A DNA stretch of 64,000 bases from an uncultured Chloroflexia bacterium (GCA_963837425.1 CAWINH010000006.1:260494-324493), one strand, 5' to 3'; counted from the first letter of the stretch, positions 1,768 to 19,587 are shown. The notes: generated from the letters alone by a model not told the origin. Made by a program: numbers and translations.

Positions 1768-1845
1768 GCCGCTCGTATACTCGGCCCCACGGGCCCGGCG
1801 AGCCGGATCGGCTCAGCCCGCATGCAAGAAGCAGGAGACCATCGC

Positions 1846-2232: not shown

Positions 2233-2238
2233 GGAGAT

Positions 2239-3228: not shown

Positions 3229-3272
3229 AGCCTAGCCCTTCGAGGCCCGCTGCGGCATAATCGCCGTCAACC

Positions 3273-3602: not shown

Positions 3603-3614
3603 CCCGGCGACACC

Positions 3615-4196
3615 ATGGCCAAGGCCGCCTGGGCCGATGCGCTCGCCGAGCGGGCGCCCGATATCGTCGCCGTCTGGCGCGCAATCGACGACGGGATGGT
3701 GGCCTGCCGCCGCGAGCTCCGCCGCCGCACCCCGGCCGGCAGCGCGCTGGAGATCCTGTCGCAGACCGACGCGGTGGCCGATGCGCTCGCCGAGGTCCTC
3801 GACGCCATGCCCGAGGCAGCGCTGCGGCTCCCGGGCGGCGAAGCGGACTGGAACGTGGCGCAGGCCTTCAGCCACACGACCGGCGCCCGCCGATACCTGG
3901 CCATGGTCGGTGCCGCGGCCGCCAGCGGAGCGTGGCCGGAGCGCCCGTTCGAGATCACGCCCGGCGTCCCGGGCCCCGCGGACGCAGACGTGGCGACGCT
4001 GCGCACTCTCCTCGCCAAGAGCCGACGCAGCATGGCCGCCTCGGCGAGCGCCATCGCCGGGCACGAGACCGACCCCTGCCCGGTCGACCACCCGCTGGTC
4101 GGGCACCGGCTGCGTTGCGGTGAGTGGCTCCTCTTCACCGGGGTCCACGACCTCATGCATCTCGAGCAGCTCCATCGCATCGCGCGCGGTGGCTGA
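3615..4196 (+). CDS. DinB-superfamily protein
   Basis: WNVAQAFSH ... HPLVG ... HDLMHLEQL metal-His pattern. Confidence 0.75.
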   Translation: MAKAAWADALAERAPDIVAVWRAIDDGMVACRRELRRRTPAGSALEILSQTDAVADALAEVLDAMPEAALRLPGGEADWNVAQAFSHTTGARRYLAMVGAAAASGAWPERPFEITPGVPGPADADVATLRTLLAKSRRSMAASASAIAGHETDPCPVDHPLVGHRLRCGEWLLFTGVHDLMHLEQLHRIARGG

Positions 4197-5496: not shown

Positions 5497-5856
5497 ATGG
5501 ACCAGACCGGGTTGATCTACGTCCTGGGATTTGGGTTCGCCGCGACCACCTTCGTCTTCGCGACGATCCTCTTCTCGTGGCTGATCACCCACCGGCGCCA
5601 CCGACCGCAGAAGGGGCTGCCGTACGAGTGCGGGATCGACACGATCGGCGACACCTGGAGCCGGTTCGGTCTCGCGTTCTACCTGTACGCGCTCCTGTTC
5701 GTCGCCTTCGACGTGGAGATCATCTTCGTCTACCTGTGGGCGATCACGGTGCGTGCCGTGGCCGGGCAGGGGATCATCGCCATCGGCCTGTTCCTCGTCA
5801 TCCTCCTGTTCGGTGAGCTCTACGCCTGGCGGAAGGGAGACCTGCGATGGCAGTAG
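5497..5856 (+). CDS. nuoA: NADH-quinone oxidoreductase subunit A
   Basis: [29 protein letters not shown]. Confidence 0.95.
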   Translation: MDQTGLIYVLGFGFAATTFVFATILFSWLITHRRHRPQKGLPYECGIDTIGDTWSRFGLAFYLYALLFVAFDVEIIFVYLWAITVRAVAGQGIIAIGLFLVILLFGELYAWRKGDLRWQ

Positions 5857-6483
5857 AGGATCGAGAGCGGACCGGGCGCCACGTCGCCCATCGTCATTCC
5901 CGACCAGGCGGCGGGCGACGAGCTGCTCCGCGAGTTCGGGATGGAGGAGCATCCGAAGGGCGGCTTCCACGGCCTGCTCGAGGTGATCCCGACCCGCGCG
6001 GACTGGCTGCTGGACCTGATCCGGGCCAACTCCCTGTGGCCGCTCCTGTCGGGCCTGTCGTGCTGCGCCATCGAGATGATGAGCACGGCCACCGCCAAGA
6101 ACGACATCGACCGATTCGGGATGTTCCCGTTCCGCGCCAGCCCGCGGCAGGCGGACGTCCTGATCGTGGCGGGAACCCTGACGACGAAGATGGCCGGGCC
6201 GCTCGTGCGCCTGTGGGAGCAGATGCCCGAGCCGAAGTGGTGCGTGGCGATGGGCACCTGCACGACGAGCGGCGGTCGCTTCAAGCGCAGCTACAGCGTC
6301 GTCCAGGGCGTGGATCGGGTCATGCCCGTGGACGTCTACGTCCCCGGCTGCCCGCCGCGACCGGAGGGCCTGATCTACGGCCTCGTGAAGCTCCAGGAGC
6401 TCGTGAAGCAACGCCGTGGCCAGTGGCCCACCTACGTCGACCGCGGCCCGCAGCGCATCGCGTGGGAAGGAGACGTGCGCTGA
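5847..6483 (+). CDS. nuoB: NADH-quinone oxidoreductase subunit B (probable indel near 5859; called ORF 5941-6483)
   Basis: [35 protein letters not shown]; the ATG at 5847 overlapping the nuoA end is one base out of frame with the coding-like [14 protein letters not shown] stretch. Confidence 0.92.
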
Positions 6484-7055
6484 CCGCCCCCGCAGCCGCC
6501 GGGGCGCTGGTCCGCGCCCTCACCGAACGCCATCCGGAGCTCGCCGCCGGCCTGTGGACGGACCCCGACACCGTCGAGATCACGGTGCCCGGGGACCGGA
6601 ACGTCGAGCTGCTCCGCGAGCTCCGGGACGACCCGGACCTCCACTTCTGGTACCTGGCCGATGCCGCCGCCGTGGACTACGGTCCCGGCGAGCGCTTCGA
6701 GGTCGTCTACCACCTCTATTCCGATCGCCATCCGGCCTGGCTGCGCGTGCGGGCCACGGTCGACCGCGGCAGCCCGCACATCCCGACCATCACCGGTCTG
6801 TGGCCCGGCGCGATGTTCCACGAGCGCGAGATGTACGACATGATGGGGATCGTCTTCGACGGGAACCGGGACCTGCGGCGCATCTTCATGTCGCCCGACT
6901 ACCGCAGCTTCCCGCAGCGCAGGGACTTCCTGCTCCCCGATGACGCGGCCGACTCGCCGGCGGCCGGCGTGAACCCGCTCGAACGGCCGGAGACCTGGGA
7001 GCTGTCGCAGGTCACCCGCGAGCTCGGCGACGAGAGCCCAGGGGGCGCAACGTGA
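6480..7055 (+). CDS. nuoC: NADH-quinone oxidoreductase subunit C (probable CTG start)
   Basis: [36 protein letters not shown]; AAGGAG RBS and CTGA overlap with the nuoB stop. Confidence 0.9.
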
Positions 7056-8335
7056 CGACGACCGATCGCGAGACGGAGATCCGCGACCCGATCGACCTCG
7101 ACCGGGAAGAGGAGGCGCGCCTGCAGGCGGCCGCCGGCCTGGGCCCGCAACGTCCGGCATCGGTGGAGTACGCCGGCTTCGACACGGTCAGCGTCCCGGA
7201 TCGGCCGCCCCAGACCGAGCGCGAGCGAGAGCTCTTCACCCTCGACGAGGGCGAGATGCTCATGAACATGGGGCCGCAGCACCCCTCCACGCACGGCGTC
7301 ATGCGGCTGCTCCTCAAGGTCCGCGGCGAGATCGTCACCGACATCGACCCCGTGCTCGGCTACCTCCATCGCGGGATCGAAAAGCTCTGCGAGAACGCGA
7401 CCTACACGACGGTCCTTACCTACGTCGATCCCATGGACTACATGTCCTCGATGCACAACGAGCACGCCCCGGCGATCGCCTTCGAGAAGCTGTACGGGAT
7501 CCGCGCCCCGCGGCGGGCCGAGTACATCCGCGCCCTCGTCGTGGAGCTGAACCGCGTCTTCAGCCACGGCCTGATGGTGGGCTTCCTGGCCCTCGACATG
7601 GGCGGCATCACGCCGATCCTCTACGGCTTCATCAACCGCGACGAAACGGTCGAGCTGCTCGCGGCCATCAGCGGCCAGCGGATGCTCTTCAACTTCTTCC
7701 GGGTCGGCGGGGTGAACTGGGACGTCAACGACGAGTTCATCAACCGCCTCTCGCGCTGGCGCGTGAACATCGGCAAGGCGATCCGGGACAACGAGGCGCT
7801 CGTCACCCAGAACGAGATCTTCACCGCGCGGACCAGGGGGATGGGCAGGCTCTCAGCGGAGCAGGCCATTGGCCTCGGCGTCTCGGGGCCGAACCTCCGT
7901 GCGTCGGGGGTCCCGTTCGACGTGCGCAAAGCGCACCCCTACTCGATCTATTCGGAGCTCGAGTTCGAGGTCGTAACCCAGCAGGGGGGCGACGTGTACG
8001 CGCGTTACCTCCAGCGCATCGCCGAGCTCAAGCAGAGCCTGAGCCTGATCGACCAGATCGTGGATCGCATGCCGCACGGCCCGGTGCAGGCCCAGGTGCC
8101 GGGGATCATCCGACCGCGGCCGGGACGGGCGTACGCGGCGATCGAATCGCCGCGCGGCCTGTACTCCGTCTACGCCATCAGCGACGGCGGCCCGACTCCG
8201 TACCGCTTCCGGATGCGCGACCCGAGCTACGTGTCGCTGCAGGTGATGCCGGTCCTCATGCCCGGTCATCTCGTCGCCGACACGATGGCGATCATGGCCA
8301 GCCTGGACCCGATCATGGGCGGGGTGGACAAGTAG
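7052..8335 (+). CDS. nuoD: NADH-quinone oxidoreductase subunit D
   Basis: NMGPQHPSTHGVMRL, GYLHRGIEK, SGPNLRASG, ESPRG, SLDPIMGGVDK. Confidence 0.96.
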   Translation: MTTTDRETEIRDPIDLDREEEARLQAAAGLGPQRPASVEYAGFDTVSVPDRPPQTERERELFTLDEGEMLMNMGPQHPSTHGVMRLLLKVRGEIVTDIDPVLGYLHRGIEKLCENATYTTVLTYVDPMDYMSSMHNEHAPAIAFEKLYGIRAPRRAEYIRALVVELNRVFSHGLMVGFLALDMGGITPILYGFINRDETVELLAAISGQRMLFNFFRVGGVNWDVNDEFINRLSRWRVNIGKAIRDNEALVTQNEIFTARTRGMGRLSAEQAIGLGVSGPNLRASGVPFDVRKAHPYSIYSELEFEVVTQQGGDVYARYLQRIAELKQSLSLIDQIVDRMPHGPVQAQVPGIIRPRPGRAYAAIESPRGLYSVYAISDGGPTPYRFRMRDPSYVSLQVMPVLMPGHLVADTMAIMASLDPIMGGVDK

Positions 8336-9352
8336 ATGGATCTCAGCCTGCTGCTCGGGATCGGGCGCTTCATCCTGGCCACCACCCTGCTCCTGGTCCT
8401 CACCATCCCCACCGCGTTCGTCATCATCCAGATGGAGCTCAAGGTGATCGCCCTCATGCAGCTCCGCCTGGGTCCGAACCGGGTCGGCCCGCGCGGGATG
8501 TTCCAGAGCACGATCCACGGCTTCAAGGTGCTCGCCAAGGAGGACGTCACTCCCGACCAGGCCGACCGGCCGACCTTCACCATGGCTCCCTGGATCGTCT
8601 ATATGGCGGCCGCCATGAGCCTGCTCGTCATTCCGTTCGCGCCCGGGCTGGTGGCGTTCGACTCGCAGATCAGCGTCGTCTACTTCTTCGCGGTGCTGGG
8701 ACTCTCGGTGGTCGGACTGCTGGTGGCCGGCTGGGCGAGCTACAACAAGTACTCGCTCCTCGGCGGCCTGCGCAGCGCGGCGCAGATGGTGAGCTACGAG
8801 ATTCCGCTCACGCTGTCGGTGGTGGGGATCGTCATCCTCACCGGGTCCCTCTCGTTCACCGAGATCATCGCCTGGCAGGCGCAGCACGGCTGGACGGTCC
8901 TGTGGCAGATCCCGACCCTGGCCTTCCCGGTCTTCTACATCGCCGCGCTGGCCGAGATCAACCGCACCCCGTTCGACATGGTCGAGGCCGACTCCGAGAT
9001 CGTGGCCGGCTTCGCGACCGAGTACTCGGGGATGCGCTTCGGGTTCTTCTTCTTCGCCGAGTACGTCGCCCTCTTCATCATGAGCGCGGCCATGGTCACC
9101 CTCTTCTTCGGCGGGTGGCTCGCGCCGTGGCCCTTCCCCGCGCAGCTCGACGGCTTCATCGGGACGCTCTACGGCCTCGTCTGGTTCTTCGGCAAGAGCT
9201 ACTTCTTCGTGTTCGTCGCGGTCTGGCTGCGGACGACACTGCCGCGCGCCCGCGTCGACCAGCTCATGGGGCTGGCCTGGAAGGTCCTCCTGCCGCTGGC
9301 GCTCGTGAACCTGTTCATCACCGCGGGGATCGTCCTGTGGTTCAACCTGTGA
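8336..9352 (+). CDS. nuoH: NADH-quinone oxidoreductase subunit H
   Basis: QLRLGPNRVGP, GGLRSAAQMVSYE, AEINRTPFD..EADSEIVAGFATEYSG. Confidence 0.96.
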   Translation: MDLSLLLGIGRFILATTLLLVLTIPTAFVIIQMELKVIALMQLRLGPNRVGPRGMFQSTIHGFKVLAKEDVTPDQADRPTFTMAPWIVYMAAAMSLLVIPFAPGLVAFDSQISVVYFFAVLGLSVVGLLVAGWASYNKYSLLGGLRSAAQMVSYEIPLTLSVVGIVILTGSLSFTEIIAWQAQHGWTVLWQIPTLAFPVFYIAALAEINRTPFDMVEADSEIVAGFATEYSGMRFGFFFFAEYVALFIMSAAMVTLFFGGWLAPWPFPAQLDGFIGTLYGLVWFFGKSYFFVFVAVWLRTTLPRARVDQLMGLAWKVLLPLALVNLFITAGIVLWFNL

Positions 9353-9367
9353 GAGGGGCGTAGCGAG

Positions 9368-10204
9368 ATGGCAATCCCGGGCACCGGCATCGTCAAGGGG
9401 ATGACCACCACCCTGCGCAACCTGTTCGCGCCCAAGGTGACGCGCCAGTACCCCGATGAGCGGCCGCAGATGCCGGAACGCTGGCGCGGACGGCTGGACC
9501 TCATCTACGACCCGTTCGGCGAGCACAAGTGCGAGGTCTGCTTCCAGTGCGCGCAGGTCTGCCCGGTCGAGGCCATCGACATGAGCGGCTTCGACGTGCA
9601 GGGCAACCGGATCCGGTATGGCATGCCGGAGATCTACGACGAGCGCAAGGACCCGAACGCCTATCGGCGGGCCGGGCTTGCCGCGGAGCCGATGCGCAAC
9701 GCGGCGCGCTGGGAGGAGGAGGTCGACGGCGCGTGGCTCGCCGACGTCATCGAAGGCTTCGGCGCGCGACCCGAGTCGCTCGTCGCGATCTTCACCGCCA
9801 TCGAGCAGCGCTACGGTTACCTACCCGAGCGCGCGCTGCGCCAGGTGAGCGACACGATGACGATCCACTGGGCGCAGGTCTTCGGCGCCGCCGGGCTCGG
9901 CGGGTTCCGGCTGCTGCCGGCCGAGGGGCACCTCGTCACCGTCTGCACCTGCCCGGCCTGTTACTTCGCCGGCGGCGGCGAGCTTCTGGAGGCGATCAGC
10001 GAGGAGCTCGGCATCCGGCCCGGTGAGTCGACGTCGGACGGCGCGTTCAGCCTCGAGACCTCCGAGGAGGTCGGGGCCGGGGCGCTGGCGCCCGCGATCC
10101 GCATCGACACGCTCGTCTACGGCCCGCTCGACGCCGAGCGGGCGCTCCACCTCATCTCCGAGCGTCGCCGCGCCCGTCGGCGCGCCGCGACGGCGGCGAG
10201 CTGA
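9368..10204 (+). CDS. fusion of NuoI N-terminal half and a degenerate NuoE/HydC-like domain
   Basis: Residues 1-72 are NuoI-like (GMTTTLRNLF.PKVTRQYP, RWRGR, one CEVCFQCAQVCP); the C-terminal part is NuoE-like (YGYLP, VCTCPAC, GESTSDGAFSLE, ALAPAI). Confidence 0.88.
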   Translation: MAIPGTGIVKGMTTTLRNLFAPKVTRQYPDERPQMPERWRGRLDLIYDPFGEHKCEVCFQCAQVCPVEAIDMSGFDVQGNRIRYGMPEIYDERKDPNAYRRAGLAAEPMRNAARWEEEVDGAWLADVIEGFGARPESLVAIFTAIEQRYGYLPERALRQVSDTMTIHWAQVFGAAGLGGFRLLPAEGHLVTVCTCPACYFAGGGELLEAISEELGIRPGESTSDGAFSLETSEEVGAGALAPAIRIDTLVYGPLDAERALHLISERRRARRRAATAAS

Positions 10205-10208
10205 GGCG

Positions 10209-11576
10209 ATGACCACCGGCGGCGGGCTCTCCCCGCAGATCCACATCCTCCCCGGAGGCGAGCAGCGGCTGCTCGCCGACATCGGGCGCGTCGACCCCGA
10301 CAGCCTCGCCTCGTATCGGGAGCATGGCGGTTACGGAGGGCTGGCCCGCGCCGTCGAGCAGCTAGGGGCCGCGTCGGTCGTCACCGAGATCGGCGACGCC
10401 GGCCTGCGCGGGCGCGGCGGTGGCGGCTATCCGACCGCCGAGAAGTGGCGGGCGGCCCGCGCCGCAGAGGGCGACCGCAAGGTCGTGGTCGCCAACCTGA
10501 TGGGCGCCGATCCGACCGCCCTCGGCGATCGAGCGCTCGCCGAGGGAAATCCCCACCTCGTCCTCGAGGGCGTCCTCATCGCGGCCTTCGCGACCGGCGC
10601 CTCGGAGGCGATCATCGCCGTGCGCCGCGACTGGGAGCTCGCGATCAAGCGACTCCGCCAGGCCGCCGCCGAGGCGGAGGCCGCGAACCTCGCCGGCTAC
10701 CTGGTGCTGGGCACCGACTTCTCCTGCGCGGTCTCGGTCTGGGAGGGATCCGGCGCGCTCGTCGCCGGGGAGGAGACGGCGCTCCTGGCCGCGTTGGCCG
10801 GGGACCGCGGGATGCCGACGATCCGACCGCCGTATCCGACCGAGCGCGGCCTGCTCGGCGCGCCGACGACGGTGCACAACGCCGAGACGCTGGCCCACGC
10901 CGCCTGGATCCTGGGACACTCCGTCGAGGCCTTCGCCTCCGCCGGCGCGCACCACAGCGCCGGGACGCGGCTCGTCACGATTTACGGCAAGGTCGCCGAG
11001 CCCGGCCTGGTCGAGGTTCCGCTGGGGACGCCGATCCACCGCCTCATCGAGCTGGCCGGCGGCCCGACCGGCGAGACGAAGGCGGTCTTCGTGGGCGGCC
11101 CCGGTGGCGGCGCCCTCGGCGCGAACGAGCTCGAGATCGAGTACGACTACGAGCCGCTGCGTGCCGCGGGCGCCGGCCTCGGGATGGGGACGGTCCTCGT
11201 CACCGATGCCGACACCTGCATGGTCGACACGGCGCGATTCTTCCTCGACTGGTCGGCACGCGAGGCGTGTGGCAAGGCGGTCCCCTGCCGGATCGGCACC
11301 CGCCGCCTCGTCGAGGCCCTCGATCGCATCCTGGCCGCCACGCCGCGGCCGGGCGACTTCGACCTGCTGCGCGACCTGTCGCGGAAGATGGCCGACACCG
11401 CGCTCTGTCACCTCGAGGCAAGGGCGCCAGGACCGATGCTCTCGACCCTCGCCCGCTTCGGCGATGAGTACCGCGCCCATGCAGAGCGCGGTGAATGCCT
11501 GTCCGGCTCGTGCGAGGTGCCCCGCGTCTCGCCACTCATCGCGGTGCACACCGGCATCGGCCAATCGGGATCCTGA
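10209..11576 (+). CDS. nuoF: NuoF/HydB-like flavoprotein subunit with divergent motifs
   Basis: GLRGRGGGGYPTAEKW, GEETALL, RPPYP, HNAETL, DTCMVD, EACGKAVPCRIG, HAERGECLSGSC. Confidence 0.85.
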   Translation: MTTGGGLSPQIHILPGGEQRLLADIGRVDPDSLASYREHGGYGGLARAVEQLGAASVVTEIGDAGLRGRGGGGYPTAEKWRAARAAEGDRKVVVANLMGADPTALGDRALAEGNPHLVLEGVLIAAFATGASEAIIAVRRDWELAIKRLRQAAAEAEAANLAGYLVLGTDFSCAVSVWEGSGALVAGEETALLAALAGDRGMPTIRPPYPTERGLLGAPTTVHNAETLAHAAWILGHSVEAFASAGAHHSAGTRLVTIYGKVAEPGLVEVPLGTPIHRLIELAGGPTGETKAVFVGGPGGGALGANELEIEYDYEPLRAAGAGLGMGTVLVTDADTCMVDTARFFLDWSAREACGKAVPCRIGTRRLVEALDRILAATPRPGDFDLLRDLSRKMADTALCHLEARAPGPMLSTLARFGDEYRAHAERGECLSGSCEVPRVSPLIAVHTGIGQSGS

Positions 11577-11598
11577 TCACGGCTAGCATGGGGAGCAG

Positions 11599-13993
11599 AT
11601 GAGCTTCGTCACCAGCGGCAACGGACACGGCAACGGCAACGGCGCCGGCAAGCCACTGCGTCCGGATGACTACGCGCCGATGTGGCCCATGGTGCCCGGG
11701 ACCCGGAAGATCAGCGTCACGATCAACGGCGAGCAGGTGGAGGCCGAGGAAGGGCAGACGATCCTCCAGGCCTGCCGCGTGCTGGGGCTCGAGATCCCGA
11801 CGCTCTGCTACGAGCCGAAGCTCGCCGCCTTCGGTGCCTGCCGGATCTGCGTCGTCGAGGTCGAGGGGCGCGACGACACTCCCATCAGCTGCGGGACCCA
11901 GATCGCGGATGGGATGGTCATCACCACCCACTCCCAGCGGCTCATCGAGAACCGCCGCATGGTCCTCGAGCTCATCTTCAGCGACCACGACGCGTACTGC
12001 CTGCCGCCCTGCCAGTTCAAGTGCCCGACCCGGGTCGACATTCCCGGCTACCTGAAGCAGAACACGCTCGGCAACTGGGAGGAGGCGACGCGCATCCTCA
12101 AGCGCTCGCTCCCGTTCCCCGCCATCCTGGGCCGCGTCTGCCCGGCGCCCTGCGAGACCCACTGCCGTCGCGAGGAGGTGGACACCGCCATCTCGATCCG
12201 TGACTCGCACCGCTACTGCGCGGACCGCGTCCTCGAGGTCGACGCCCCGGCTCCCATCCCGTGGCCGAAGGAGGCGGACACCGGGCGGCGGGTGGCGGTC
12301 ATCGGCGCCGGCGCGGCCGGCATGGCGGCGGCCTACTACCTCCAGCTGCGGGGCCACCACTGCGACGTGCTCGAGGCGGAGCCCGAGCAGGGCGGCATGC
12401 TGCGCTACGGGATCCCCGAGTACCGCCTCCCGAAGGGCTGGATGGATCGCGAGCTCGACCACGTCTGGGAGCTGGGCGCGACGTTCAAGCCGAACATGCG
12501 CCTGGGGCGCGACTACCACCTCGCGGACCTGCTCGAGCAGGGCTACGACGCCGTCTACGTCAGCATCGGCTGCTACCGATCGAACGAGCTCGGCATCCCC
12601 GGCGAGGACGGCGACGGCGTGGTGAACGCGCTCGAGAACCTCTACAACTCGACCCGCGGCCTCCCGATCCCGGCGCTGAAGGACGCGCGGGTCGTCGTCA
12701 TCGGCGGCGGCTTCACCGCCATCGACTGCACGCGCACCAGCGTCCGGCAGGGTGCCGGCGAGGTGACCCTCGTCTACCGCCGCGACCTGAAGGACATGCC
12801 GGCCCAGGACGAGGTCCACGAGGCGATCGAGGAGGGCGCGCGGGTCATCTTCCAGGCCGCCCCGACCCGGATCATCACCGACCGGCGCAACAAGGTGACC
12901 GGCGTCGAGTTCCAGCACATGCGCCTCGGCGAGCCGGACGAGAAGGGCCGCCGCCGCCCCGAGCCGATGCCAGGCACCGAGTTCGTCGTCGAGTGCGACA
13001 CCGTACTGGGCGCCATCGGCCAGGGACCGGACCTTTCCTGGGTCGATTCCGAGCCCGAGGAGATCCGCTCCCAACTGGAGGTCACCCGCCGCGGCACCCT
13101 CGTCGCCGAGGAGGACATCTTCCGCACCGGCGTGCCCCGCGTCTTTGCCTCGGGCGACGTGCGGACCGGGGCCACGACCGTGGTCGAGGCGATCGGCGAG
13201 GCCCGTCGCGCGAGCTACGCGATCGACTACTGGCTGCGCGGCCACGACCTCGACGACCCCCAGGTGCGGCGCATCGTGTCCGAGCCGCAGCCGAACTTCC
13301 TGACGATCGTGCCCTTCACCGACGACGTGAAGGAACCGCGCGCGGTCATGGGCAAGAAGGGCGCCGAGGAACGCAAGGGCAGCTTCGCCGAGTACGAGTT
13401 CGGGTTCACCGGGGACCAGGCCATGGCCGAGGCGGGCCGCTGCCTGCAGTGCACCTGCGAGGCGATCGGCCACTGCGACCTCCGCGAGGCGGCGATCGAG
13501 TACGAGACGACGCTGAACATGGCGATCGACGAGCGCTCGATCCAGGACAACCCGTACGTCGGCGTCAACCACGGCTACGGCCGCGACGAGACGCACAGCT
13601 TCATCCTCCGCGACTACTCACGGTGCATCGACTGTGGCCGATGCGCCCAGGTCTGCAAGGACATCGTGGGCGCCGGCTGCTACGACTTCATCGGCAAGGG
13701 CTTCGACTCGCTCGTCACGACCGCGGATTTCGTCGTCGCTGAACGAGACGCCGTGCGTCTCCTGCGGACGCTGCGCGGAGACCTGTCCGGTGGGGGCGTT
13801 GATGCCGCGCCCGCGCACGCTCGAGACCTACCAGCTCGACGTGTCGCGCTGCATCTTCTGCGGCATCTGCGCCGATGCCTGCCCGTACGACGCCCTGCGC
13901 TGCGGCCCCGAGTTCGAGTTCAGCGAGTACCAGCGCGACCTGCCCATGCTCGACATCCTCGAGATGTCCGACCGGGAGCGCCCGACCCGCTGA
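11599..13993 (+). CDS. NuoG-N / GltD-like FAD-NADP(H) oxidoreductase / ferredoxin / NuoI C-terminal half fusion (1-nt frameshift at ~13735)
   Basis: [2Fe-2S] IPTLCY..GACRICVVE..ISC; CLPPCQFKCP, GRVCPAPCETHC; GAGAAG; GGGFTA..VYRR; CIDCGRCAQVC; in the shifted frame CVSCGRCAETCPVGAL and YQLDVSRCIFCGICADACPYDAL. Confidence 0.87.
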
Positions 13994-14508
13994 CCGATTT
14001 CGACGGTCTCTGAGGCGAACGCGCCAGCTCGTGTGCGCCAGGCGAACGCATCGGACACCGAGCGACCGCTTTGCGTCCTCGATGTGCACCCCGGCGCACA
14101 TTCGGGTCAGGTTCGGGGTGAATCGGCGTGTTCAATGGCCGTTGTGCTCGCCTCGCGCACGCCGCGCCATGGACACCGCGCCATGGACGCCGCTCGCCGG
14201 CCCTTTCGCGCCACCGACTCCCCAACCGCGCATGAGCGGCACGCTAACTGCGTCCGTCAGGCGCGCCGGCCCGATGCGACGGCAACTCCGAGCTCACGGA
14301 TGGCTGCCGCCGGGCTCGCTCCCTGCCCCCGACCTCGATACGGTGCCGGTGAGGAGCGTATGAAGACTCGGACCGTCGATGTGAGCGAACGAGGCGGTCC
14401 GCATCACCGGACGTTCACCGGTGCATTCATCTGGCGTACGTTTCGCCGGCATCGGTTCCATCCAGGTTTCGTCAGGCAGCGCCGACGCCGCGCCCCACCT
14501 CGGTTCCT

Positions 14509-15783
14509 TTACAAGGGAGCGGGTGGAAGCAGGATCACGCCCTGGTAGCTGTCGGTTCCGACCTCACGCTGGCCGATGCCCACCAGCCGATCGTCGGCGA
14601 CGGCCAGCCGCTGCATCGTGATGTCGGGGTCAACCTGCGGACGGCCGATGACCTGCCACGTTCCGTCCGGGTGCCAGCGCACCAGGACGAGCTGCGTATC
14701 TCCGACGTCGGGACGGAACCAGCGGTAGACGCCAAGCACGCCGTCGTCGCGAGCGTAGAGGTCGACGAACTCGCCACAGCAGCCCTGCGCGAAGGCGAGC
14801 GACCACGACGATCCGTCCGCGGAGGTCCAGGCCGCGGGCCGCCGGAGGTTGCCGTTCGCATAGTCGACCTGGATGGAACCGCCCGCCAGGAGCTGGCCGT
14901 CGACCACGACCGCACGGGAGATGCCCGCGCCCGCGAGCGCCGGCGCCGTCGGCAGCAGATCCCACGCGAGGCCGTCGGCGGAAGACCACGCCAGCCCCTG
15001 CGACGGATCGTGCCCGGCGAGGCCAACCGCGATCCATCCGTCACCGAAGCGGACGAGGTCGAGCATCGCGGACTCCGGCGGTGCGGTCACCGCTGTTGAC
15101 TCGGTCCAGGTGACTTCGTCGTTCGAGGTCCAGGCCATCGCCCCGTTGAGGTAGTCGAGCCCCGAGTGGGAGCCGATGGCCATGATGCCAGGCCCGCCCT
15201 CGGCGACGTCCAGCTGGAATGCGCCGGAGACCGCCGCCAGCTGGCGCCAGGCCGTGCCATCGGCCGATGCCCAGACCACCGATCCGTAGCCCTCGCTGTA
15301 GCGAGCTCCCCATCCGCCGAGCGCCAGGTACCCGCCACCGGCCAGGGCCAGGACCCGGCTCAGGCCCTTCGCATCGTCGGCGCCGATGGCCGGCACGCTG
15401 GTCACCGCCATCCACGTTTCAGCGTCGCGGCTCGTCCAGATCGCGCCGTTCCAGCCGTCTGCCCCCACCGCCAGGAGGCCCCCACCCGGCATCGCCACGA
15501 CGTCCGAAATGGTCCCGGTGGTCGACACGGTAACCGCGCGCCAAGGCCCGGGGATCAGCGGGGGCGTCTCGGCGAACGCCGGCGAGGCGGAGGCGTTCGG
15601 TGGCGGGGTGGCGACCGGCGTCGGCGACGGCGGCGCGCTCGCGGGGAGCGTCGCGCTGGCTCCGGGCGTGGGCGAAGCGACCGTGGCGGCCGACTCGCTC
15701 ACCGAGGCTCCGGGGCTCGCGCAGGACGCGGCGAGAAGCGAGGCCATCGACAGGCCTGCCAATCGCGCCAACCAGCTCCGCAT
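14509..15783 (-). CDS. secreted lipoprotein with Asp-box/BNR repeats (probable beta-propeller)
   Basis: Lipobox-like LLAAS-C, Pro/Ser/Thr linker, five W-x-S-x-D-x-x-x-W repeats (WTSRDAETW, WASADGTAW, WTSNDEVTW, WSSADGLAW, WTSADGSSW). Confidence 0.7.
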   Translation of the reverse strand: MRSWLARLAGLSMASLLAASCASPGASVSESAATVASPTPGASATLPASAPPSPTPVATPPPNASASPAFAETPPLIPGPWRAVTVSTTGTISDVVAMPGGGLLAVGADGWNGAIWTSRDAETWMAVTSVPAIGADDAKGLSRVLALAGGGYLALGGWGARYSEGYGSVVWASADGTAWRQLAAVSGAFQLDVAEGGPGIMAIGSHSGLDYLNGAMAWTSNDEVTWTESTAVTAPPESAMLDLVRFGDGWIAVGLAGHDPSQGLAWSSADGLAWDLLPTAPALAGAGISRAVVVDGQLLAGGSIQVDYANGNLRRPAAWTSADGSSWSLAFAQGCCGEFVDLYARDDGVLGVYRWFRPDVGDTQLVLVRWHPDGTWQVIGRPQVDPDITMQRLAVADDRLVGIGQREVGTDSYQGVILLPPAPL

Positions 15784-15966
15784 CGGTCGAAATCCCTCCC
15801 AGACTGGACGCAGCATGAGGACGTCCAGCTCCCTCAGCGGTGTCACATCTTGGCCGCGGCCCCCGATGCTGACAAGAGCGCATCCGCCCGTCGTTCGTGC
15901 TCCGTCCATGCGCGGTTGACAGGTCCCGGTGCCGCGGGACCTCAGCCGGGCCGGTACGGTGCGTGC

Positions 15967-16401
15967 TCAGCGCGTCGCGAGCCGGGCGCCGGCGCGGCCG
16001 ATCAGCCAGGCCAGCCCGACGCCGATCGCACAGCCGAGCGTGTTCACCCACACGTCGTCGATGTCCGCCATCCGGCCCGCGATGAACCGCCACTGCACGA
16101 GCTCGATGAGGATCGAGAGCGTCAGCCCGGCGCCGATCGTCGTCCACGGACCGACGCGCGGCAGGGCCGCACGGGCCAGCAGGCCGAGCGGCATCAGGAG
16201 GAGGAGGTTGCCGACCAGCTGGCCGATGGCGAAGGCCGTGCCGGCGTAGCGGAACGTGTACCGGATCCCCGCCAGCGGGACGAGATTCGGCGCCAGCGGC
16301 CCCTGCGAGGTGGGCGTCAGGGTCAGCACCAGCACGACCGCGAGGTAGGCCGCCAGCACGAGGCGGGTGAGGAGGAGGAGACCGCGGGCCATGAGTGCCA
16401 T
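15967..16401 (-). CDS. VanZ-family membrane protein
   Basis: NLVPL, GNLLLLMPLG, IELVQ..GRMADIDDVWVNTLG. Confidence 0.85.
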   Translation of the reverse strand: MALMARGLLLLTRLVLAAYLAVVLVLTLTPTSQGPLAPNLVPLAGIRYTFRYAGTAFAIGQLVGNLLLLMPLGLLARAALPRVGPWTTIGAGLTLSILIELVQWRFIAGRMADIDDVWVNTLGCAIGVGLAWLIGRAGARLATR

Positions 16402-16534
16402 GGTGCTTCATTTCGCGCGCGGGCGGCGGTCGCGTCCCGTCGATCGGCGGGCGCGGTGCGCTAGAATCGAACCCGGCCTCGGCAATCCGCGAGGCCATTC
16501 GACCGAAGCGAACCCTCCAGCAGGAGCGTGAGCC

Positions 16535-17044
16535 CTGGACATCTCCGGCGTTCTCTTCGTGGTGCTCGCCATCGGTGTCATTGGTGGCGGGCTGGCCGTG
16601 GTCACCCTGCGCAACGTCATCCACTCGGCCATCGCGATGATGGTCTGCTTCGGGTCGCTGGCCGGGATGTATGCGCTGCTCGGCGCACCGATCATCGCCG
16701 CCGCCCAGGTGCTCATCTACCTCGGCGCCATCAGCGTCCTCATCCTGTTCGCGATCATGCTGACCCAGGCAGGGGACGCGAACCTGCCGGCCCCGTTCCA
16801 CCGCCAGGGCCCGATTGCGGTCGTCGTGGCCGTCGTGCTCGTGGCCCTCGTCGGCTGGGCAGCGCTGGCGACCGACTGGGGAGCCGGCGCGTCTGTCGTC
16901 GCCATCGGCCTCCAGAAGGTTGCCGAGGCGATCTTCACCGACTACGCGCTGCCCTTCGAGATCATCAGCCTCCTGCTGCTGGCGGCGATCATCGGCGCCA
17001 TCTACCTTGCGCGCCGCCCCGAAGAGGACGAGAGGGCCAACTGA
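16535..17044 (+). CDS. nuoJ: NADH-quinone oxidoreductase subunit J (probable CTG start)
   Basis: RNVIHSAI, QVLIYLGAISVLILFAIML, YALPFEIISLLLLAAIIGA; AGGAG at 16522 then CTG-GAC-ATC. Confidence 0.93.
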   Translation: MDISGVLFVVLAIGVIGGGLAVVTLRNVIHSAIAMMVCFGSLAGMYALLGAPIIAAAQVLIYLGAISVLILFAIMLTQAGDANLPAPFHRQGPIAVVVAVVLVALVGWAALATDWGAGASVVAIGLQKVAEAIFTDYALPFEIISLLLLAAIIGAIYLARRPEEDERAN

Positions 17045-17349
17045 TGGGCCTGCCCGGCTACCTCGTCGTCTCCACCCTCCTGTTCGGGATCGGCGCCTTT
17101 GGCTTCATGGCGCGGCGCAACGCGATCCTCATGCTGATCAGCATCGAGCTGATGCTGAACTCGGTGAACCTCTCGCTCGTCGCCTTCAACGCGTACCTGC
17201 CGAGCGGCTCGAACGCCGGCGCGATCTTCGCGTTGATGGTGATGGCCGTGGCCGCAGCCGAGGCCACCGTGGGGCTGGCCCTGGTGATCGCCATCATCCG
17301 CACCCGGCAGACCGCGGAAGTCGACTCCTACTCGGACCTCAAGGAGTAG
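17044..17349 (+). CDS. nuoK: NADH-quinone oxidoreductase subunit K
   Basis: RRNAILMLISIELMLNSVNL, VAAAEATVGLA. Confidence 0.95.
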   Translation: MGLPGYLVVSTLLFGIGAFGFMARRNAILMLISIELMLNSVNLSLVAFNAYLPSGSNAGAIFALMVMAVAAAEATVGLALVIAIIRTRQTAEVDSYSDLKE

Positions 17350-17361
17350 GGGCCGGCGCCG

Positions 17362-19587
17362 ATGGACCTGCTGATCACCCTGATCCCGGCACTGCCGCTG
17401 GCGGGCTTCCTGTTCGCCGTGCTGGCCGGCTCCCGGCTCGACCGCATCCCCGCCCACGGCCACGCGGATCACGGCGAGCACGGGGACGACCACGCGGGCC
17501 ACACCGGCCATGGGGCGGAGGATGCGCACGGGCCCGACGCGCACGCGCCCGTCGATGAGAGCGCGTTCCACACGGTCCCGTCCGAGGAGGAGCAGGCCGC
17601 CACCAGCCCGCACGCCGGCCACGCCGACGACCTCGCGAACAGCAACGGCGCCGACGGCGTGATCCCCGCCGACCTGAACGACGGGATCGGGCAGGCCGGG
17701 CACGTCGTCGAGGGTGGACCGCAGCCGCGCTACCGCTCGTGGATCGTGCCGGTGACGCTCGTGGCGGCCACCTGGGTCATCAGCATGGTCGTCTTCGTCA
17801 ACGTCGTCTTCGGCGGCCACACATACCACGTGACGCTCTACGAGTGGATCGCCGCTGGCGATTTCCACGTGAACATCGCGTTCGCGGTGGACTCCCTGAC
17901 CGCGATGCTGCTGCTCGTGGTCAGCACGGTCGGCCTGCTGGTCCACGTGTACTCGATCGGCTACATGAACGGCGACCGCGGGTTCTGGCGCTTCTTCGCC
18001 TACCTGAACCTGTTCATGTTCAGCATGCTGCTCCTGATCCTGGGCGACAACTTCCTGATGCTCTACGTCGGCTGGGAGGCGGTCGGCCTGTGCAGCTACG
18101 CGCTCATCGGCTTCTGGTACAAGAAGCCCTCGGCGGCGGGCGCGGCGAAGAAGGCGTTCATCGTCAACCGCATTGGCGACCTCGGATTCGGCCTCGGCAT
18201 CATCGCCATCTGGGTGAGCCTGGGGACGCTCCAGTTCGACGAGGTCTTCGCGAAGATCGGAACCCTGGACCCGGGCCTGATCACGCTGATCGCGCTCCTC
18301 CTCTTCGCCGGGGCGGTCGGCAAGAGCGCCCAGTTCCCGCTCCACGTCTGGCTCCCCGACGCGATGGAGGGCCCCACTCCGGTGAGCGCCCTGATCCACG
18401 CCGCGACCATGGTGAACGCCGGTGTCTACATGGTCGCCCGCGCGAACCCGATCTTCGCGGCGAGCCCCACCGCGATGTGGGTCGTCGCGTCGATCGGGGT
18501 CTTCACCGCACTGCTCGCGGCGGCGATTGCCCTCACCCAGAACGACATCAAGAAGGTCCTCGCCTACTCGACGGTGAGCCAGCTGGCCTACATGTTCCTG
18601 GCGCTCGGGATCGGGGCCTGGGTGGCGGCGATCTTCCACCTCGTGGCCCACGGCTTCTTCAAGGGGCTGCTCTTCATGGGCTCGGGCTCGGTGATCCACG
18701 GCGCGAGCGGCGAGCAGGACATGCGCTTCCTGGGCGGCCTCCGGGACCGGATGAAATGGACGTACCGGACGATGGTCGTCGGCTCGCTGGCGCTGGCCGG
18801 GATCCCGATCTTCGCCGGGTTCTTCTCGAAGGACGAGATCATCGGCGAGGCGTTCAACCGGGGCTATTACCTCTTCTACGTCATCGGCGTGCTCGTGGCC
18901 TTCATGACCGCGTTCTACACGTTCCGCATGATCTACATGACCTTCCACGGGTCCTGGCGAGGGCCGCGGGAAGCGTGGCGCCACGTCCATGAATCGGCCC
19001 CGACCATGGTCTGGCCGCTCGTCATCCTCGCCATCCCCACGACCCTCGCCGGCCTCTTCCTGGGGATCCCGCCGGAGGGCGGGATCGTTCACTCCTGGAT
19101 GGAGGATGTGTTCGGGGCGACCGAGTCGGCGGGGGTGCTGGCCGGCTCCATCGCGTCCGGCGCGGAGCACGGCTTCGCGCTGTTCGGCCTCGGCGGGCTG
19201 TTGCTGCTCATCGGCGCCTCGGTGGGGACCGCCGGGATCTGGCTCGCGCACAGCTGGTACGTCCGCGACCCGGAGGCGCCGAAGCGGTTCGTGGAGCGCA
19301 TCCCGTTCGGGCTGGGACCGGGGATGTACGCCGCCAGCCTGAACAAGTACTACTTCGACGACATCTACGGGCTCGTCTTCGCGCGCGGCGGAGTGCTGCT
19401 CGGCAACCTGCTGTGGTGGTTTGACGCGAAGGTCATCGACGGGGCGGTGAACGGCGCCGGCTGGCTCGCGCAGCGAGGCGGCGGGCTGCTGCGCAGGGCG
19501 CAGACCGGCCGGGTCGAGAACTACGGGCTGGGGATGGCCGCCGGCCTCGTGCTCGTCCTCGTCGCGTACCTCGTGGTCCTGCGCTGA
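17362..19587 (+). CDS. nuoL: NADH-quinone oxidoreductase subunit L with His/Asp-rich insertion
   Basis: VHVYSIGYM, GWEAVGLCSY, KSAQFPLHVWLPDAMEGPTPVSALIHAATMV, FFSKDEI. Confidence 0.96.
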   Translation: MDLLITLIPALPLAGFLFAVLAGSRLDRIPAHGHADHGEHGDDHAGHTGHGAEDAHGPDAHAPVDESAFHTVPSEEEQAATSPHAGHADDLANSNGADGVIPADLNDGIGQAGHVVEGGPQPRYRSWIVPVTLVAATWVISMVVFVNVVFGGHTYHVTLYEWIAAGDFHVNIAFAVDSLTAMLLLVVSTVGLLVHVYSIGYMNGDRGFWRFFAYLNLFMFSMLLLILGDNFLMLYVGWEAVGLCSYALIGFWYKKPSAAGAAKKAFIVNRIGDLGFGLGIIAIWVSLGTLQFDEVFAKIGTLDPGLITLIALLLFAGAVGKSAQFPLHVWLPDAMEGPTPVSALIHAATMVNAGVYMVARANPIFAASPTAMWVVASIGVFTALLAAAIALTQNDIKKVLAYSTVSQLAYMFLALGIGAWVAAIFHLVAHGFFKGLLFMGSGSVIHGASGEQDMRFLGGLRDRMKWTYRTMVVGSLALAGIPIFAGFFSKDEIIGEAFNRGYYLFYVIGVLVAFMTAFYTFRMIYMTFHGSWRGPREAWRHVHESAPTMVWPLVILAIPTTLAGLFLGIPPEGGIVHSWMEDVFGATESAGVLAGSIASGAEHGFALFGLGGLLLLIGASVGTAGIWLAHSWYVRDPEAPKRFVERIPFGLGPGMYAASLNKYYFDDIYGLVFARGGVLLGNLLWWFDAKVIDGAVNGAGWLAQRGGGLLRRAQTGRVENYGLGMAAGLVLVLVAYLVVLR

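What the first reader, a model, noticed from the sequence alone, without database searches (positions are those of the whole stretch)
9368..13993. Split NuoI: a three-gene electron-input module sits inside nuoI, with each half fused to a different subunit
Seen: there is no intact nuoI in this operon. The gene after nuoH starts like NuoI (TLRNLF.PKVTRQYP..RWRGR), has only the first motif CEVCFQCAQVCP (9530-9565), then continues as NuoE. The missing half (ETYQLDVSRCIFCGICADACPYDAL..GPEFEFSEY.R, ~13820-13993) is the C-terminus of the large oxidoreductase two genes later. Both proteins therefore have an odd number of ferredoxin motifs (1 and 3). Established: in a 2[4Fe-4S] ferredoxin fold such as NuoI (N6a/N6b), each cluster takes three Cys from one motif and one from the other. 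Inference: the two halves reassemble in trans, so both clusters are ligated by two polypeptides and the input module is fixed onto the NuoBCD arm. The order H-I(N):E-F-G':I(C) fits insertion of an E-F-G' cassette into the loop between the two nuoI motifs. I do not know of a described complex I with this layout.
Basis: partly seen in the sequence, partly recalled or inferred. Interest (0 to 1): 0.95.

Follow-up and report, generated by a model that had tools for sequence, protein, structure and literature searches.

The report
Split NuoI in Chloroflexota complex I
In this soil Chloroflexota lineage the respiratory complex I gene nuoI is cut in two, with a three-gene NADPH-type flavoprotein module sitting between the halves and fused to them, an arrangement conserved across a whole bacterial class and apparently not described before.

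Summary
The operon runs nuoA-B-C-D-H, NuoI(N-half)::NuoE-like, NuoF-like, [2Fe-2S + GltD-like FAD/NADPH + NuoG-type Fe-S]::NuoI(C-half), then nuoJ-N. The two pieces match complementary parts of the NuoI profile (positions 1-72 and 71-112 of 121). The genome has no intact nuoI.

Correction: in this window the C-half is not in frame with the large gene. A 1-base insertion near 13,735 shifts the frame. In 20 of 21 relatives' loci the ORF is continuous. All 3 metagenome contigs that span the site lack the base. The downstream frame is under strong purifying selection. The shift is probably an assembly error.

The layout is not an artefact. Of 121 genomes of the class (Ca. Limnocylindria), 118 have only the two halves. 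At least five other Chloroflexota families carry the same two fusions beside a normal nuoI.

The inserted cassette resembles the Stn/NfnABC (Bfu-type) NADPH transhydrogenase more than NuoEFG. It lacks the parts tied to bifurcation.

Best reading: a complex I variant whose N6a/N6b ferredoxin fold is rebuilt from two polypeptides. This tethers an NADPH- (perhaps also NADH-) oxidising module to the quinone arm. No prior description was found.

The parts
5497..5856 (+). nuoA
   Evidence: PF00507 Oxidored_q4, E 1.5e-30
5941..6483 (+). nuoB
   Evidence: PF01058 Oxidored_q6, E 2.3e-28
6462..7055 (+). nuoC (start uncertain: GTG at 6423 or 6462)
   Evidence: PF00329 Complex1_30kDa, E 3.2e-37, on translation 6459-7055. 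Start candidates.
7052..8335 (+). nuoD
   Evidence: PF00346 Complex1_49kDa, E 2.2e-83
8336..9352 (+). nuoH
   Evidence: PF00146 NADHdh, E 1.3e-108
9368..10204 (+). Fusion gene NuoI N-half :: linker :: NuoE-like domain (278 aa). The N-half is about 9368-9616, the conserved linker about 9617-9745, and the NuoE-like domain about 9746-10162.
   Evidence: TIGR01971 NuoI positions 1-72 match residues 11-83. PF01257 matches residues 127-265. The fusion is conserved in 21 of 24 family genomes. Annotated elsewhere only as 'subunit E'.
9530..9565 (+). The only CxxCxxCxxxCP motif of the N-half (NuoI motif 1)
   Evidence: The four Cys and the Pro are invariant in 15 of 15 aligned sequences.
10209..11576 (+). 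NuoF-like flavoprotein F' (455 aa), closest to Bfu-type B subunits
   Evidence: Pfam Complex1_51K, SLBB and NADH_4Fe-4S. TIGR01959 scores 317.6 bits against a cut-off of 558.65. PDB best hits are 9bov_B at 4e-117, StnB 8oh5_B and NfnB 9n5u_B, against true NuoF at 1e-74.
11599..13734 (+). G' part in frame 1: [2Fe-2S] Fer2_4, GltD-like Fer4_20 + FAD/NAD(P)H domain inserted in a NuoG/HydA-type Fe-S domain, and first ferredoxin motif (13624-13656)
   Evidence: Pfam and NCBIfam. PDB best hits are 9bov_A at 5e-170, StnC 8oh5_C at 7e-154 and NfnA 9n5u_A at 1e-140 (run on the relative's uninterrupted ORF). Invariant Cys, GxGxxG and YRR residues in 20 of 20 sequences.
13728..13738 (+). Site of a 1-base insertion (frameshift) peculiar to this assembly
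   Evidence: Alignment with 7 relatives. All 3 metagenome contigs spanning it lack one base at 13734, 13735 or 13738.
13736..13993 (+). G' C-terminus in frame 2: second ferredoxin motif (13754-13789), then the NuoI C-half (about 13,814-13,939, motif 13850-13885) and a short tail
   Evidence: TIGR01971 positions 71-112. In the relative's continuous ORF the same match lies at residues 736-777 of 794. There are 1-2 aa differences in 85 against 23-31 nt differences in 255.
14509..16401 (-). Spacer with two minus-strand genes (14509-15909 and 15967-16401). Not part of the complex. Variable among relatives.
   Evidence: GC3 0.86 and 0.96. No Pfam match for the 466-aa ORF. Spacer length is 0.9-5.2 kb in family relatives and about 0.2-0.3 kb in other families of the class.
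16559..17044 (+). nuoJ
   Evidence: PF00499, E 5.4e-35
17044..17349 (+). nuoK
   Evidence: PF00420, E 1.3e-25. ATG at 17044.
17362..19587 (+). nuoL
   Evidence: PF00361 and PF00662
19587..21110 (+). nuoM
   Evidence: PF00361
21122..22594 (+). nuoN
   Evidence: PF00361

Best explanation
This is the only complex I of a Ca. Limnocylindria (Chloroflexota) bacterium, in a variant form. A three-gene flavoprotein cassette related to the Stn/NfnABC (Bfu-type) NADPH transhydrogenase sits inside nuoI of an operon with the order A-B-C-D-H-I-J-K-L-M-N.

Architecture (shown). The NuoI N-half carries the N-terminal segment and ferredoxin motif 1. It is the N-terminus of the NuoE-like subunit. The NuoI C-half carries motif 2 and the conserved following segment. 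It is the C-terminus of the large subunit G'. G' also contains a [2Fe-2S] domain, a GltD-like FAD/NAD(P)H domain with two [4Fe-4S] sites, and a HydA/NuoG-type two-cluster ferredoxin domain.

Assembly (inferred). The two orphan motifs pair in trans and rebuild the 2[4Fe-4S] NuoI fold. Each of clusters N6a and N6b then takes three Cys from one polypeptide and one from the other. This locks the input module onto NuoB/C/D/H.

Electron path (inferred). NADPH reduces the FAD in G'. Electrons then pass along the G' Fe-S chain to N6a/N6b, to N2 in NuoB, and to quinone, with proton pumping by the normal membrane arm. NADH may also enter at the NuoF-like subunit.

No bifurcation (inferred). Ferredoxin-linked bifurcation as in Stn is unlikely. 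The B-subunit's extra Fe-S domains are absent and the E-like [2Fe-2S] site has lost two ligands.

Frameshift. The 1-base frameshift in this window is most likely an assembly error.
For: - Complementary NuoI halves: profile positions 1-72 and 71-112. On the same solved chains the halves map to adjoining residues: 8qby_I 17-86 and 91-138; 7arc_I 82-154 and 157-204; 7ar7_I 23-94 and 97-139.
- No intact NuoI in the window's own genome. Only 3 of 121 genomes of the class have a match over the cut-off; the rest show only halves.
- Both fusions are conserved. In 14 of 15 loci of the class, and in 6 of 6 loci from other families, the G' body and the C-half lie in one frame. The full operon order is conserved.
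- Ligands are invariant. Motif 1 Cys4+Pro is invariant in 15 of 15 sequences. Motifs a, b and c are invariant in 20 of 20.
- Motifs a and b align to the paired two-cluster domain of the solved StnC/NfnA-type chains. The spacing between them is 32 residues. Motif c is therefore the only unpaired motif in G'. Motif 1 is the only motif in the N-half protein.
- The C-terminal 85 residues are the most conserved part: 1-2 aa changes against 23-31 nt changes.
- Cassette identity: F', G' and E' each match Bfu/Stn/Nfn subunits best.
- The G' FAD and NAD(P)H motifs (GxGxxG, GGG, YRR) are invariant.
- Frameshift as error.
Against:
- In one distant relative the NuoI profile aligns to motifs b+c together (positions 41-111). 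Pfam also calls b+c a dicluster domain. A cis b+c pairing is therefore not excluded by sequence alone.
- Polyferredoxins outrank NuoI chains in the profile-versus-PDB search of the b+c segment, through multi-stretch scores.
- F' has a remodelled flavin-site motif (NLMGADP in place of NADEGDP). In this family it has also lost one of the four Cys of the N3-type cluster. NADH input is therefore doubtful.
- NADPH specificity rests on motif conservation and on homology to Stn/Nfn, not on an assay.
- No contig of the exact strain spans the frameshift site. The zero-difference contig stops at 13701. A real strain-specific mutation cannot be excluded.
- No expression data were obtained.
Confidence: 0.75

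Rival explanations
1. Cis pairing. Motifs b and c at the end of G' form an ordinary 2[4Fe-4S] ferredoxin domain by themselves. Motif a would then pair with the N-half motif, or the N-half would be a vestigial anchor without a complete cluster.
For: The b-c spacing (20 residues between CP and the next Cys) is ferredoxin-like. Pfam Fer4_7/Fer4_9 call residues 41-87 of the frame-2 ORF a dicluster domain. In L126 the NuoI profile aligns positions 41-111 to b+c. Polyferredoxins top the PDB profile search.
Against: Motifs a and b align over their full length to the paired domain of the solved 9bov_A and 8oh5_C chains, and to PF22117 and TIGR02512. The residues flanking motif c match NuoI-specific positions 71-112. 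The N-half motif is invariant. Both proteins carry an odd number of motifs, so some inter-polypeptide pairing is still needed.
Confidence: 0.1
2. The frameshift is real in this strain. The large gene would then be a recent pseudogene, or would be read by programmed +1 frameshifting.
For: The window as assembled has the extra base. A second genome (G021, L024) has a different 1-base insertion about 60 nt upstream. No zero-difference contig spans the site.
Against: All 3 contigs spanning the site lack the base. In 20 of 21 relatives' loci the ORF is continuous. The downstream frame keeps 83-84 of 85 residues despite 23-31 nt changes. A real shift would remove motifs b and c from the organism's only complex I. 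Relatives with few contigs show comparable isolated indels elsewhere, as expected of assembly errors.
Confidence: 0.1
3. The cassette encodes a separate soluble Stn-like transhydrogenase that merely shares the operon. Complex I would then work as an 11-subunit enzyme with another donor.
For: E', F' and G' are most similar to soluble Stn/Nfn subunits. In five other Chloroflexota families the module lies with nuoB, away from most nuo genes, and an intact nuoI exists elsewhere.
Against: An 11-subunit enzyme still needs NuoI. In 118 of 121 genomes of the class the only NuoI sequence is the pair of halves fused to this module. The halves are the best conserved parts. The C-terminal FdhF-like domain of StnC, which mediates tetramer formation in S. 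ovata Stn, is absent (PMC10482914, passages read).
Confidence: 0.04

Closest known systems
Canonical 14-subunit complex I (Nuo/Nqo, e.g. Thermus thermophilus 4HEA)
   Same: All membrane and Q-module subunits are present with normal Pfam matches. NuoI sequence features are kept, including both motifs and the N-terminal segment. [2Fe-2S] and His-cluster-type motifs of NuoG, and NuoF-type domains, are present.
   Different: NuoI is in two pieces on two other subunits. The input genes lie between the halves of nuoI, not between nuoD and nuoH. The G subunit carries an inserted GltD-like FAD/NAD(P)H domain and lacks the molybdopterin-like domain. F' is below the NuoF cut-off (317.6 against 558.65 bits). 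E' lacks two [2Fe-2S] Cys.
StnABC / NfnABC (Nfn-Bfu) electron-bifurcating transhydrogenase (PDB 8oh5, 9n5u, 9bov; PMC10482914 and PMC12018979, passages read)
   Same: The gene order is small E-like, F-like, then large subunit. The large subunit has a GltD-like NADPH/FAD domain inserted in a NuoG/HydA-like Fe-S domain. These are the best PDB matches for all three proteins.
   Different: F' covers only residues 106-525 of the 584-aa B subunit, so it lacks the N- and C-terminal Fe-S domains. G' ends at about residue 700 of the 1172-1178-aa chains, so it lacks the FdhF-like domain. E' [2Fe-2S] ligands are incomplete. The module is fused to NuoI halves inside a nuo operon.
Predicted Nuo-Bfu complexes of Deferribacteres, Proteobacteria, Planctomycetes and Nitrospirae (Schut et al. 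2022, PMC9304861, passages read)
   Same: A Bfu-type ABC module is encoded in the middle of a nuo cluster and is proposed to replace NuoEFG.
   Different: That survey required a BfuB with a 4Fe-4S ferredoxin domain (IPR017896), which F' lacks. The passages read mention no GltD domain and no split NuoI. The phyla differ.
mbx-like operons in which NuoI is replaced by a gltD-related flavoprotein (Degli Esposti 2015, PMC4758237, passage read)
   Same: A GltD-type NAD(P)H flavoprotein is joined to a complex I-like Q module at the NuoI position.
   Different: There NuoI is substituted. Here both NuoI motifs are kept but split, and the GltD domain is part of a NuoG-like subunit.
11-subunit complex I and enzymes with other input modules (FpoF-type; cyanobacterial NDH-1) (PMC3144371, passages read)
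   Same: Apart from the cassette, the operon order is A-B-C-D-H-I-J-K-L-M-N. I recall this order as typical of 11-subunit enzymes; it was not checked here. The input module attaches at the NuoI side.
   Different: Here the input module is covalently joined to NuoI sequence.

Membership tests
Respiratory complex I (NDH-1/Nuo) | Membrane arm subunits NuoA, H, J, K, L, M, N in one operon | tested here: met
   Pfam matches for all seven
Respiratory complex I (NDH-1/Nuo) | Q-module subunits NuoB, NuoC, NuoD | tested here: met
   PF01058, PF00329 and PF00346
Respiratory complex I (NDH-1/Nuo) | NuoI as one polypeptide with two CxxCxxCxxxCP motifs | tested here: not met
   One motif on each of two proteins. 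No full-length match in the genome.
Respiratory complex I (NDH-1/Nuo) | Quinone reduction coupled to proton translocation | not testable with these tools
   Needs biochemistry
NuoI / TYKY (TIGR01971) | Score over the curated cut-off (113.05 bits) across the whole profile | tested here: not met
   55.9 bits for positions 1-72 and 66.3 bits for the C-terminal ORF, whose best stretch covers 71-112. In the genome scan the scores were 57.5 and 48.5 bits.
NuoI / TYKY (TIGR01971) | Eight Cys ligands for N6a/N6b present and conserved | tested here: met
   Four plus four Cys, invariant in 15 of 15 and 20 of 20 sequences, but on two polypeptides
NuoF (TIGR01959) | Score over the cut-off, canonical flavin-site motif and four N3 Cys | tested here: not met
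   317.6 against 558.65 bits. The motif is remodelled and the second Cys is Ala in this family.
NuoE (PF01257 / TIGR01958) | Four Cys of the [2Fe-2S] cluster | tested here: not met
   The first pair is present. Both Cys of the second pair are replaced. They are absent in all 15 aligned sequences. The domain is truncated in some lineages.
NuoG (TIGR01973) | Full-length match including the molybdopterin-like domain | tested here: not met
   Only profile positions 1-95 of 606 match
Stn/NfnABC (Bfu family) | Large subunit with a GltD-like domain inserted in a NuoG/HydA-like Fe-S domain | tested here: met
   Residues 33-758 align to residues 2-699 of 9bov_A, E 4.8e-170. 8oh5_C gives E 7.3e-154.
Stn/NfnABC (Bfu family) | B subunit with additional N- and C-terminal Fe-S domains (bifurcation core, ferredoxin site) | tested here: not met
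   F' aligns only to residues 106-525 of 584 and is 455 aa long. Pfam finds no Fer4 domain.
Stn/NfnABC (Bfu family) | C subunit [2Fe-2S] with four Cys | tested here: not met
Stn/NfnABC (Bfu family) | NADPH-dependent reduction of NAD+ and ferredoxin | not testable with these tools
   Needs an assay

The most novel reading that the evidence does not exclude
An abundant class of soil bacteria respires with a chimeric complex I as its sole complex I. An Stn/Nfn-type NADPH-oxidising flavoprotein module was spliced into nuoI of an 11-subunit-type enzyme. Both N6 clusters are therefore ligated across two polypeptides, and NADPH (alone or together with NADH) drives proton pumping. It would be a natural split 2[4Fe-4S] ferredoxin fold. 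It would also be a worked example of how complex I enzymes without an N-module acquire an electron-input module at NuoI.
Probability: 0.45. Interest if true: 0.9.

Novelty: new variant of a known kind. Interest (0 to 1): 0.8.

Why it matters
NuoI (TYKY) is one of the most conserved core subunits of complex I. I know of no natural case where its two-cluster fold is divided between two other subunits, and none was found in the library searched.

If the halves reassemble, the enzyme has inter-subunit N6a/N6b clusters and a covalently tethered input module. That would show directly where and how a foreign electron-input module docks on the Q arm. This bears on the old question of what feeds the 11-subunit complex I enzymes.

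The GltD-like domain suggests NADPH as donor. That would change how redox balance and energy yield are modelled for Limnocylindria, which were found in many soil metagenome assemblies.

Current annotation hides the feature. The fusion is labelled only 'subunit E' and carries only PF01257. Pathway tools would therefore score nuoI as missing.

Tried and rejected
Assembly chimera was rejected. The junctions recur in more than 100 genomes and in independent metagenome contigs. X3 record 17 spans 9546-9706 with 3 differences. X1 record 8 spans 13672-14100.

An intact nuoI elsewhere was rejected for this genome. A second NuoL/H/B/CD-like cluster in the genome has no NuoI-like gene.

Motif c as a Molybdop_Fe4S4/N7-type motif was considered, because it aligns positionally to that motif in 9bov_A. 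It was rejected because it is a full CxxCxxCxxxCP motif with NuoI-specific flanks.

The cassette as true NuoEFG was rejected.

Read support. Only Logan contigs could be laid, with no raw reads. X2 and X4 gave no cover at 13,70x-13,80x. The zero-difference contig stops at 13701. The exact strain's state at the frameshift is therefore unknown.

Frameshift scan. Across about 41 kb shared with three relatives, only this one frameshift was found in the window. The many other paired hits in that output are shadow ORFs typical of 70% GC DNA.

Not run:
- Multimer and monomer structure prediction could not be done. No fold search was made.
- No RNA or expression evidence was sought beyond the single DNA run search.
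- The taxonomy of the non-Limnocylindria families could not be named.
- Supplementary files of papers were not opened. The supplementary tables and figures of PMC9304861 and PMC4758237, which list operon variants, might mention this layout.

The library covers CC-licensed PMC and bioRxiv only.

Unpublished genomes. The tallies include genomes flagged unpublished (G004, G014, G023; G023, G099, G072, G091; G293, G166, G360, G276). No locus analysed in detail comes from them. Loci L014, L016 and L020 were fetched automatically and were not used.

Full report
WHAT IS IN THE WINDOW. The + strand between 5.5 and 22.6 kb carries a complete nuo operon:
- nuoA (5497-5856)
- nuoB (5941-6483)
- nuoC (about 6462-7055)
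- nuoD (7052-8335)
- nuoH (8336-9352)
- a 278-aa gene (9368-10204)
- a NuoF-like gene (10209-11576)
- a large gene starting at 11599
- a 2.5-kb spacer with two minus-strand genes
- nuoJ (16559-17044), nuoK (17044-17349), nuoL (17362-19587), nuoM (19587-21110) and nuoN (21122-22594)

THE TWO HALVES. Residues 11-83 of the 278-aa protein match NuoI profile TIGR01971 positions 1-72 of 121. Residues 127-265 match the NuoE family PF01257. The protein has one CxxCxxCxxxCP motif, at 9530-9565. The ORF 13634-13993 matches the same NuoI profile at positions 71-112 (residues 61-102), and NuoI is its best NCBIfam hit.

Profiles built from 15 N-half fusions (A1) and 21 C-terminal segments (A2) hit the same solved NuoI/TYKY chains at adjoining residues:
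- 8qby_I: 17-86 and 91-138
- 7arc_I: 82-154 and 157-204
- 7ar7_I: 23-94 and 97-139
- 9f5x_G: 85-156 and 159-207

The window's own genome (20 contigs, 94.7% complete) has 16 weak NuoI-profile matches. None is over the cut-off, and the two best are these halves.

A CORRECTION: THE FRAMESHIFT. The large ORF 11599-14013 ends in a 92-residue Arg/Pro-rich tail. The second and third ferredoxin motifs are read in the +1 frame. An alignment with seven relatives shows one extra base in the window at about 13,728-13,738.

- In 14 of 15 loci from the class (L021-L035; the exception is L024), and in 6 of 6 loci from other families (L126-L131), the body of the large protein and the C-half lie in one frame and are contiguous.
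- L024 (G021) has a different 1-base insertion about 60 nt upstream.
- Logan contigs of four soil-metagenome runs were laid on the region. The 3 contigs that span the site (two in X1, one in X3; 94-95% identical, so related strains) all lack one base at 13734, 13735 or 13738. The only zero-difference contig stops at 13701.
- Downstream of the shift, the frame-2 reading differs from family relatives at 1-2 of 85 residues but at 23-31 of 255 bases, mostly third codon positions. That frame is therefore the translated, selected one.
- Across about 41 kb comparable with three relatives, this was the only frameshift in the window. One relative has its own frameshift elsewhere.

I read the shift as an assembly error. 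A real strain mutation or programmed shift gets about 0.1.

NOT AN ARTEFACT: DISTRIBUTION.
- The N-half::E' fusion is found in 38 of 41 relatives. Within the family it is found in 21 of 24 genomes, and the 3 misses are 80, 81 and 55% complete.
The best 80 are nearly all titled Candidatus Limnocylindria, Chloroflexota or uncultured Chloroflexia MAGs. A few bear other labels (Steroidobacteraceae, Binatia; Zixibacteria) at 74-81% identity. I take these as bin mislabels.
- In 121 genomes of the class that are at least 85% complete, all have NuoI-profile matches but only 3 (G088, G069, G039) have one over the cut-off. The rest show only the 1-~72 and ~70-112 pieces. The three exceptions also carry the split operon. 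Their intact nuoI lies in a second, canonical B-C-D-E-F-G-H-I-J operon (L036, L132).
- In a sample of 301 genomes of the phylum, N-half proteins of 230-250 aa appear in at least 33 genomes outside the class, in five families. This is a lower bound, because only 150 rows are listed.
- In the six such loci that I fetched, the order is nuoB, N-half protein, F', G'::C-half. One of them (L131) has A-B-C-D-H in front. All 5 of those genomes that I tested also have an intact nuoI elsewhere.

The split form is thus an extra module in some Chloroflexota, but the sole NuoI in Limnocylindria.

WHAT THE CASSETTE IS. It is not a NuoEFG set.

F' scores 317.6 bits against the NuoF cut-off of 558.65. Its best solved relatives are B subunits of Bfu-type enzymes: 9bov_B at 4e-117, StnB 8oh5_B at 6e-115, NfnB 9n5u_B at 5e-108, and HydB. 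True NuoF comes well behind at 1e-74. F' covers only residues 106-525 of these 584-aa chains, so it lacks their extra N- and C-terminal Fe-S domains.

G' was tested on the continuous ORF of relative L021. Residues 33-758 align to residues 2-699 of 9bov_A (E 4.8e-170). It also matches StnC 8oh5_C (7e-154) and NfnA 9n5u_A (1e-140). It has the [2Fe-2S] domain, the GltD-like domain inserted in the NuoG/HydA-type Fe-S domain, and the two-cluster ferredoxin domain. It stops where the FdhF-like domain of StnC begins. The Stn paper (PMC10482914, passages read) describes exactly this GltD-in-NuoG build, with NADPH oxidised at the FAD.

E' matches HydC, StnA and NfnC best.

Signs that bifurcation is lost:
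- E' has lost both Cys of the second [2Fe-2S] pair. They are absent in all 15 aligned sequences. In several lineages E' is cut down to its N-terminal part.
- F' has a changed flavin-site motif throughout the clade.
- In this family F' has Ala in place of the second Cys of the N3-type cluster. Other lineages keep that Cys.

G' by contrast keeps every cofactor signature in 20 of 20 sequences, down to 45% identity:
- four [2Fe-2S] Cys
- the Cys of the GltD Fe-S sites
- GxGxxG, GGG and YRR
- the CxxCxC...C block
- all twelve Cys of motifs a, b and c

HOW IT MOST LIKELY WORKS. It is established that in a 2[4Fe-4S] ferredoxin fold each CxxCxxCxxxCP motif gives three Cys to one cluster and the fourth to the other.

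Shown here: G' has three such motifs and the N-half protein has one. Motifs a and b align to the paired domain of the solved Stn/Nfn/HydA-type chains, with the typical 32-residue spacing. The two motifs left over are the NuoI motif 1 and motif 2. Both are invariant, and both keep NuoI-specific flanks.

Inferred: they pair in trans and rebuild N6a/N6b on NuoB/D/H. This fixes the module to the Q arm. Electrons would flow from NADPH through the FAD and the G' Fe-S chain to N6a/N6b, to N2, and then to quinone. NADH input via F' is possible but doubtful in this family.

Even the rival pairing (b+c in cis) would leave two orphan motifs on two polypeptides. Some inter-subunit cluster domain is therefore required either way.

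ORIGIN. The operon order is A-B-C-D-H-[I(N)::E'-F'-G'::I(C)]-J-K-L-M-N. This is the order I recall for 11-subunit operons, with an stnABC-ordered cassette inside nuoI. Canonical operons in the same class place E-F-G between D and H (L036). This fits one in-frame insertion into nuoI, followed by loss of the StnB accessory domains and of the StnC C-terminal domain.

NOVELTY. Eight full-text searches found no description of a split NuoI, or of this module in Chloroflexota. Passages were read in six papers:
- Moparthi and Hagerhall 2011 (PMC3144371): no mention.
- Degli Esposti 2015 (PMC4758237): mbx-like operons where a gltD-related flavoprotein substitutes NuoI.
- Schut et al. 2022 (PMC9304861): predicted Nuo-Bfu in other phyla. 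Their filter requires a ferredoxin domain in BfuB, which F' lacks.
- The Chloroflexus genome paper (PMC3150298): a loosely arranged second nuo set with a distant nuoF and no nuoG. No split is noted.
- The Stn paper (PMC10482914) and the Nfn-Bfu structure paper (PMC12018979).

Supplements were closed. Public annotations call the fusion 'subunit E' and record only PF01257 (the top 120 of 541 hits are listed; all named ones are 'subunit E').

VERDICT.

Noticed in passing
window 14000-16560: A spacer lies between the G'::I(C) gene and nuoJ. It holds two minus-strand genes. One is a 466-aa putative lipoprotein with repeated W..S.DG..W-like segments and no Pfam match. The other is a 144-aa membrane protein that looks VanZ-like by eye (not tested). 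In family relatives the spacer is 0.9-5.2 kb and not conserved. In other families of the class it is about 0.2-0.3 kb.
   Followed up: partly
L141 (G000:C6:761001-781000), about 6224-11248: The same genome has a second, small complex-I-like cluster: NuoL-like (661 aa), NuoH-like, NuoB-like, and a fused NuoC/D-like protein with a NiFeSe_Hases match. No NuoI/HycF-like ferredoxin gene was detected beside it.
   Followed up: partly
L142 (G000:C2:592001-610000), 7767-9896: A second NuoF-like ORF (709 aa; Complex1_51K, SLBB, NADH_4Fe-4S in its C-terminal half). Its 5' part overlaps, in another frame, an ORF with a Ferric_reduct transmembrane match. This may be a fusion or a frame problem.
   Followed up: partly
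L132 (G088:C2:4000-22000), about 860-3960: In one family member that also has a canonical nuo operon with an intact nuoI, the nuoD and nuoF matches are broken into pieces in five and two different frames. This is either a decaying copy or a poorly polished stretch.
   Followed up: no
window 17362-17850: NuoL has a long insertion of about 130 residues after its first helix. It is rich in His, Asp and Gly (runs of H-x-H/D). The Pfam N-terminal domain starts only at residue 162.
   Followed up: no
window 48857-49597 versus L135 (G005): Relative G005 changes frame within a gene that is continuous in the window. This is an isolated indel in a 2-contig assembly, the same kind of event as the window's own frameshift.
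   Followed up: no
L053, L082, L098, L110; P0016: Records with 74-81% identical copies of the fusion gene are titled Steroidobacteraceae, Candidatus Binatia or Zixibacteria. P0016's 52,008-base contig has the same length as contig C50 of G009, which the genome tool places in the window's own family. These are probably mislabelled bins.
   Followed up: no
window 22598-24100: A Glyco_transf_20 gene (trehalose-6-phosphate-synthase family) lies directly after nuoN.
   Followed up: no
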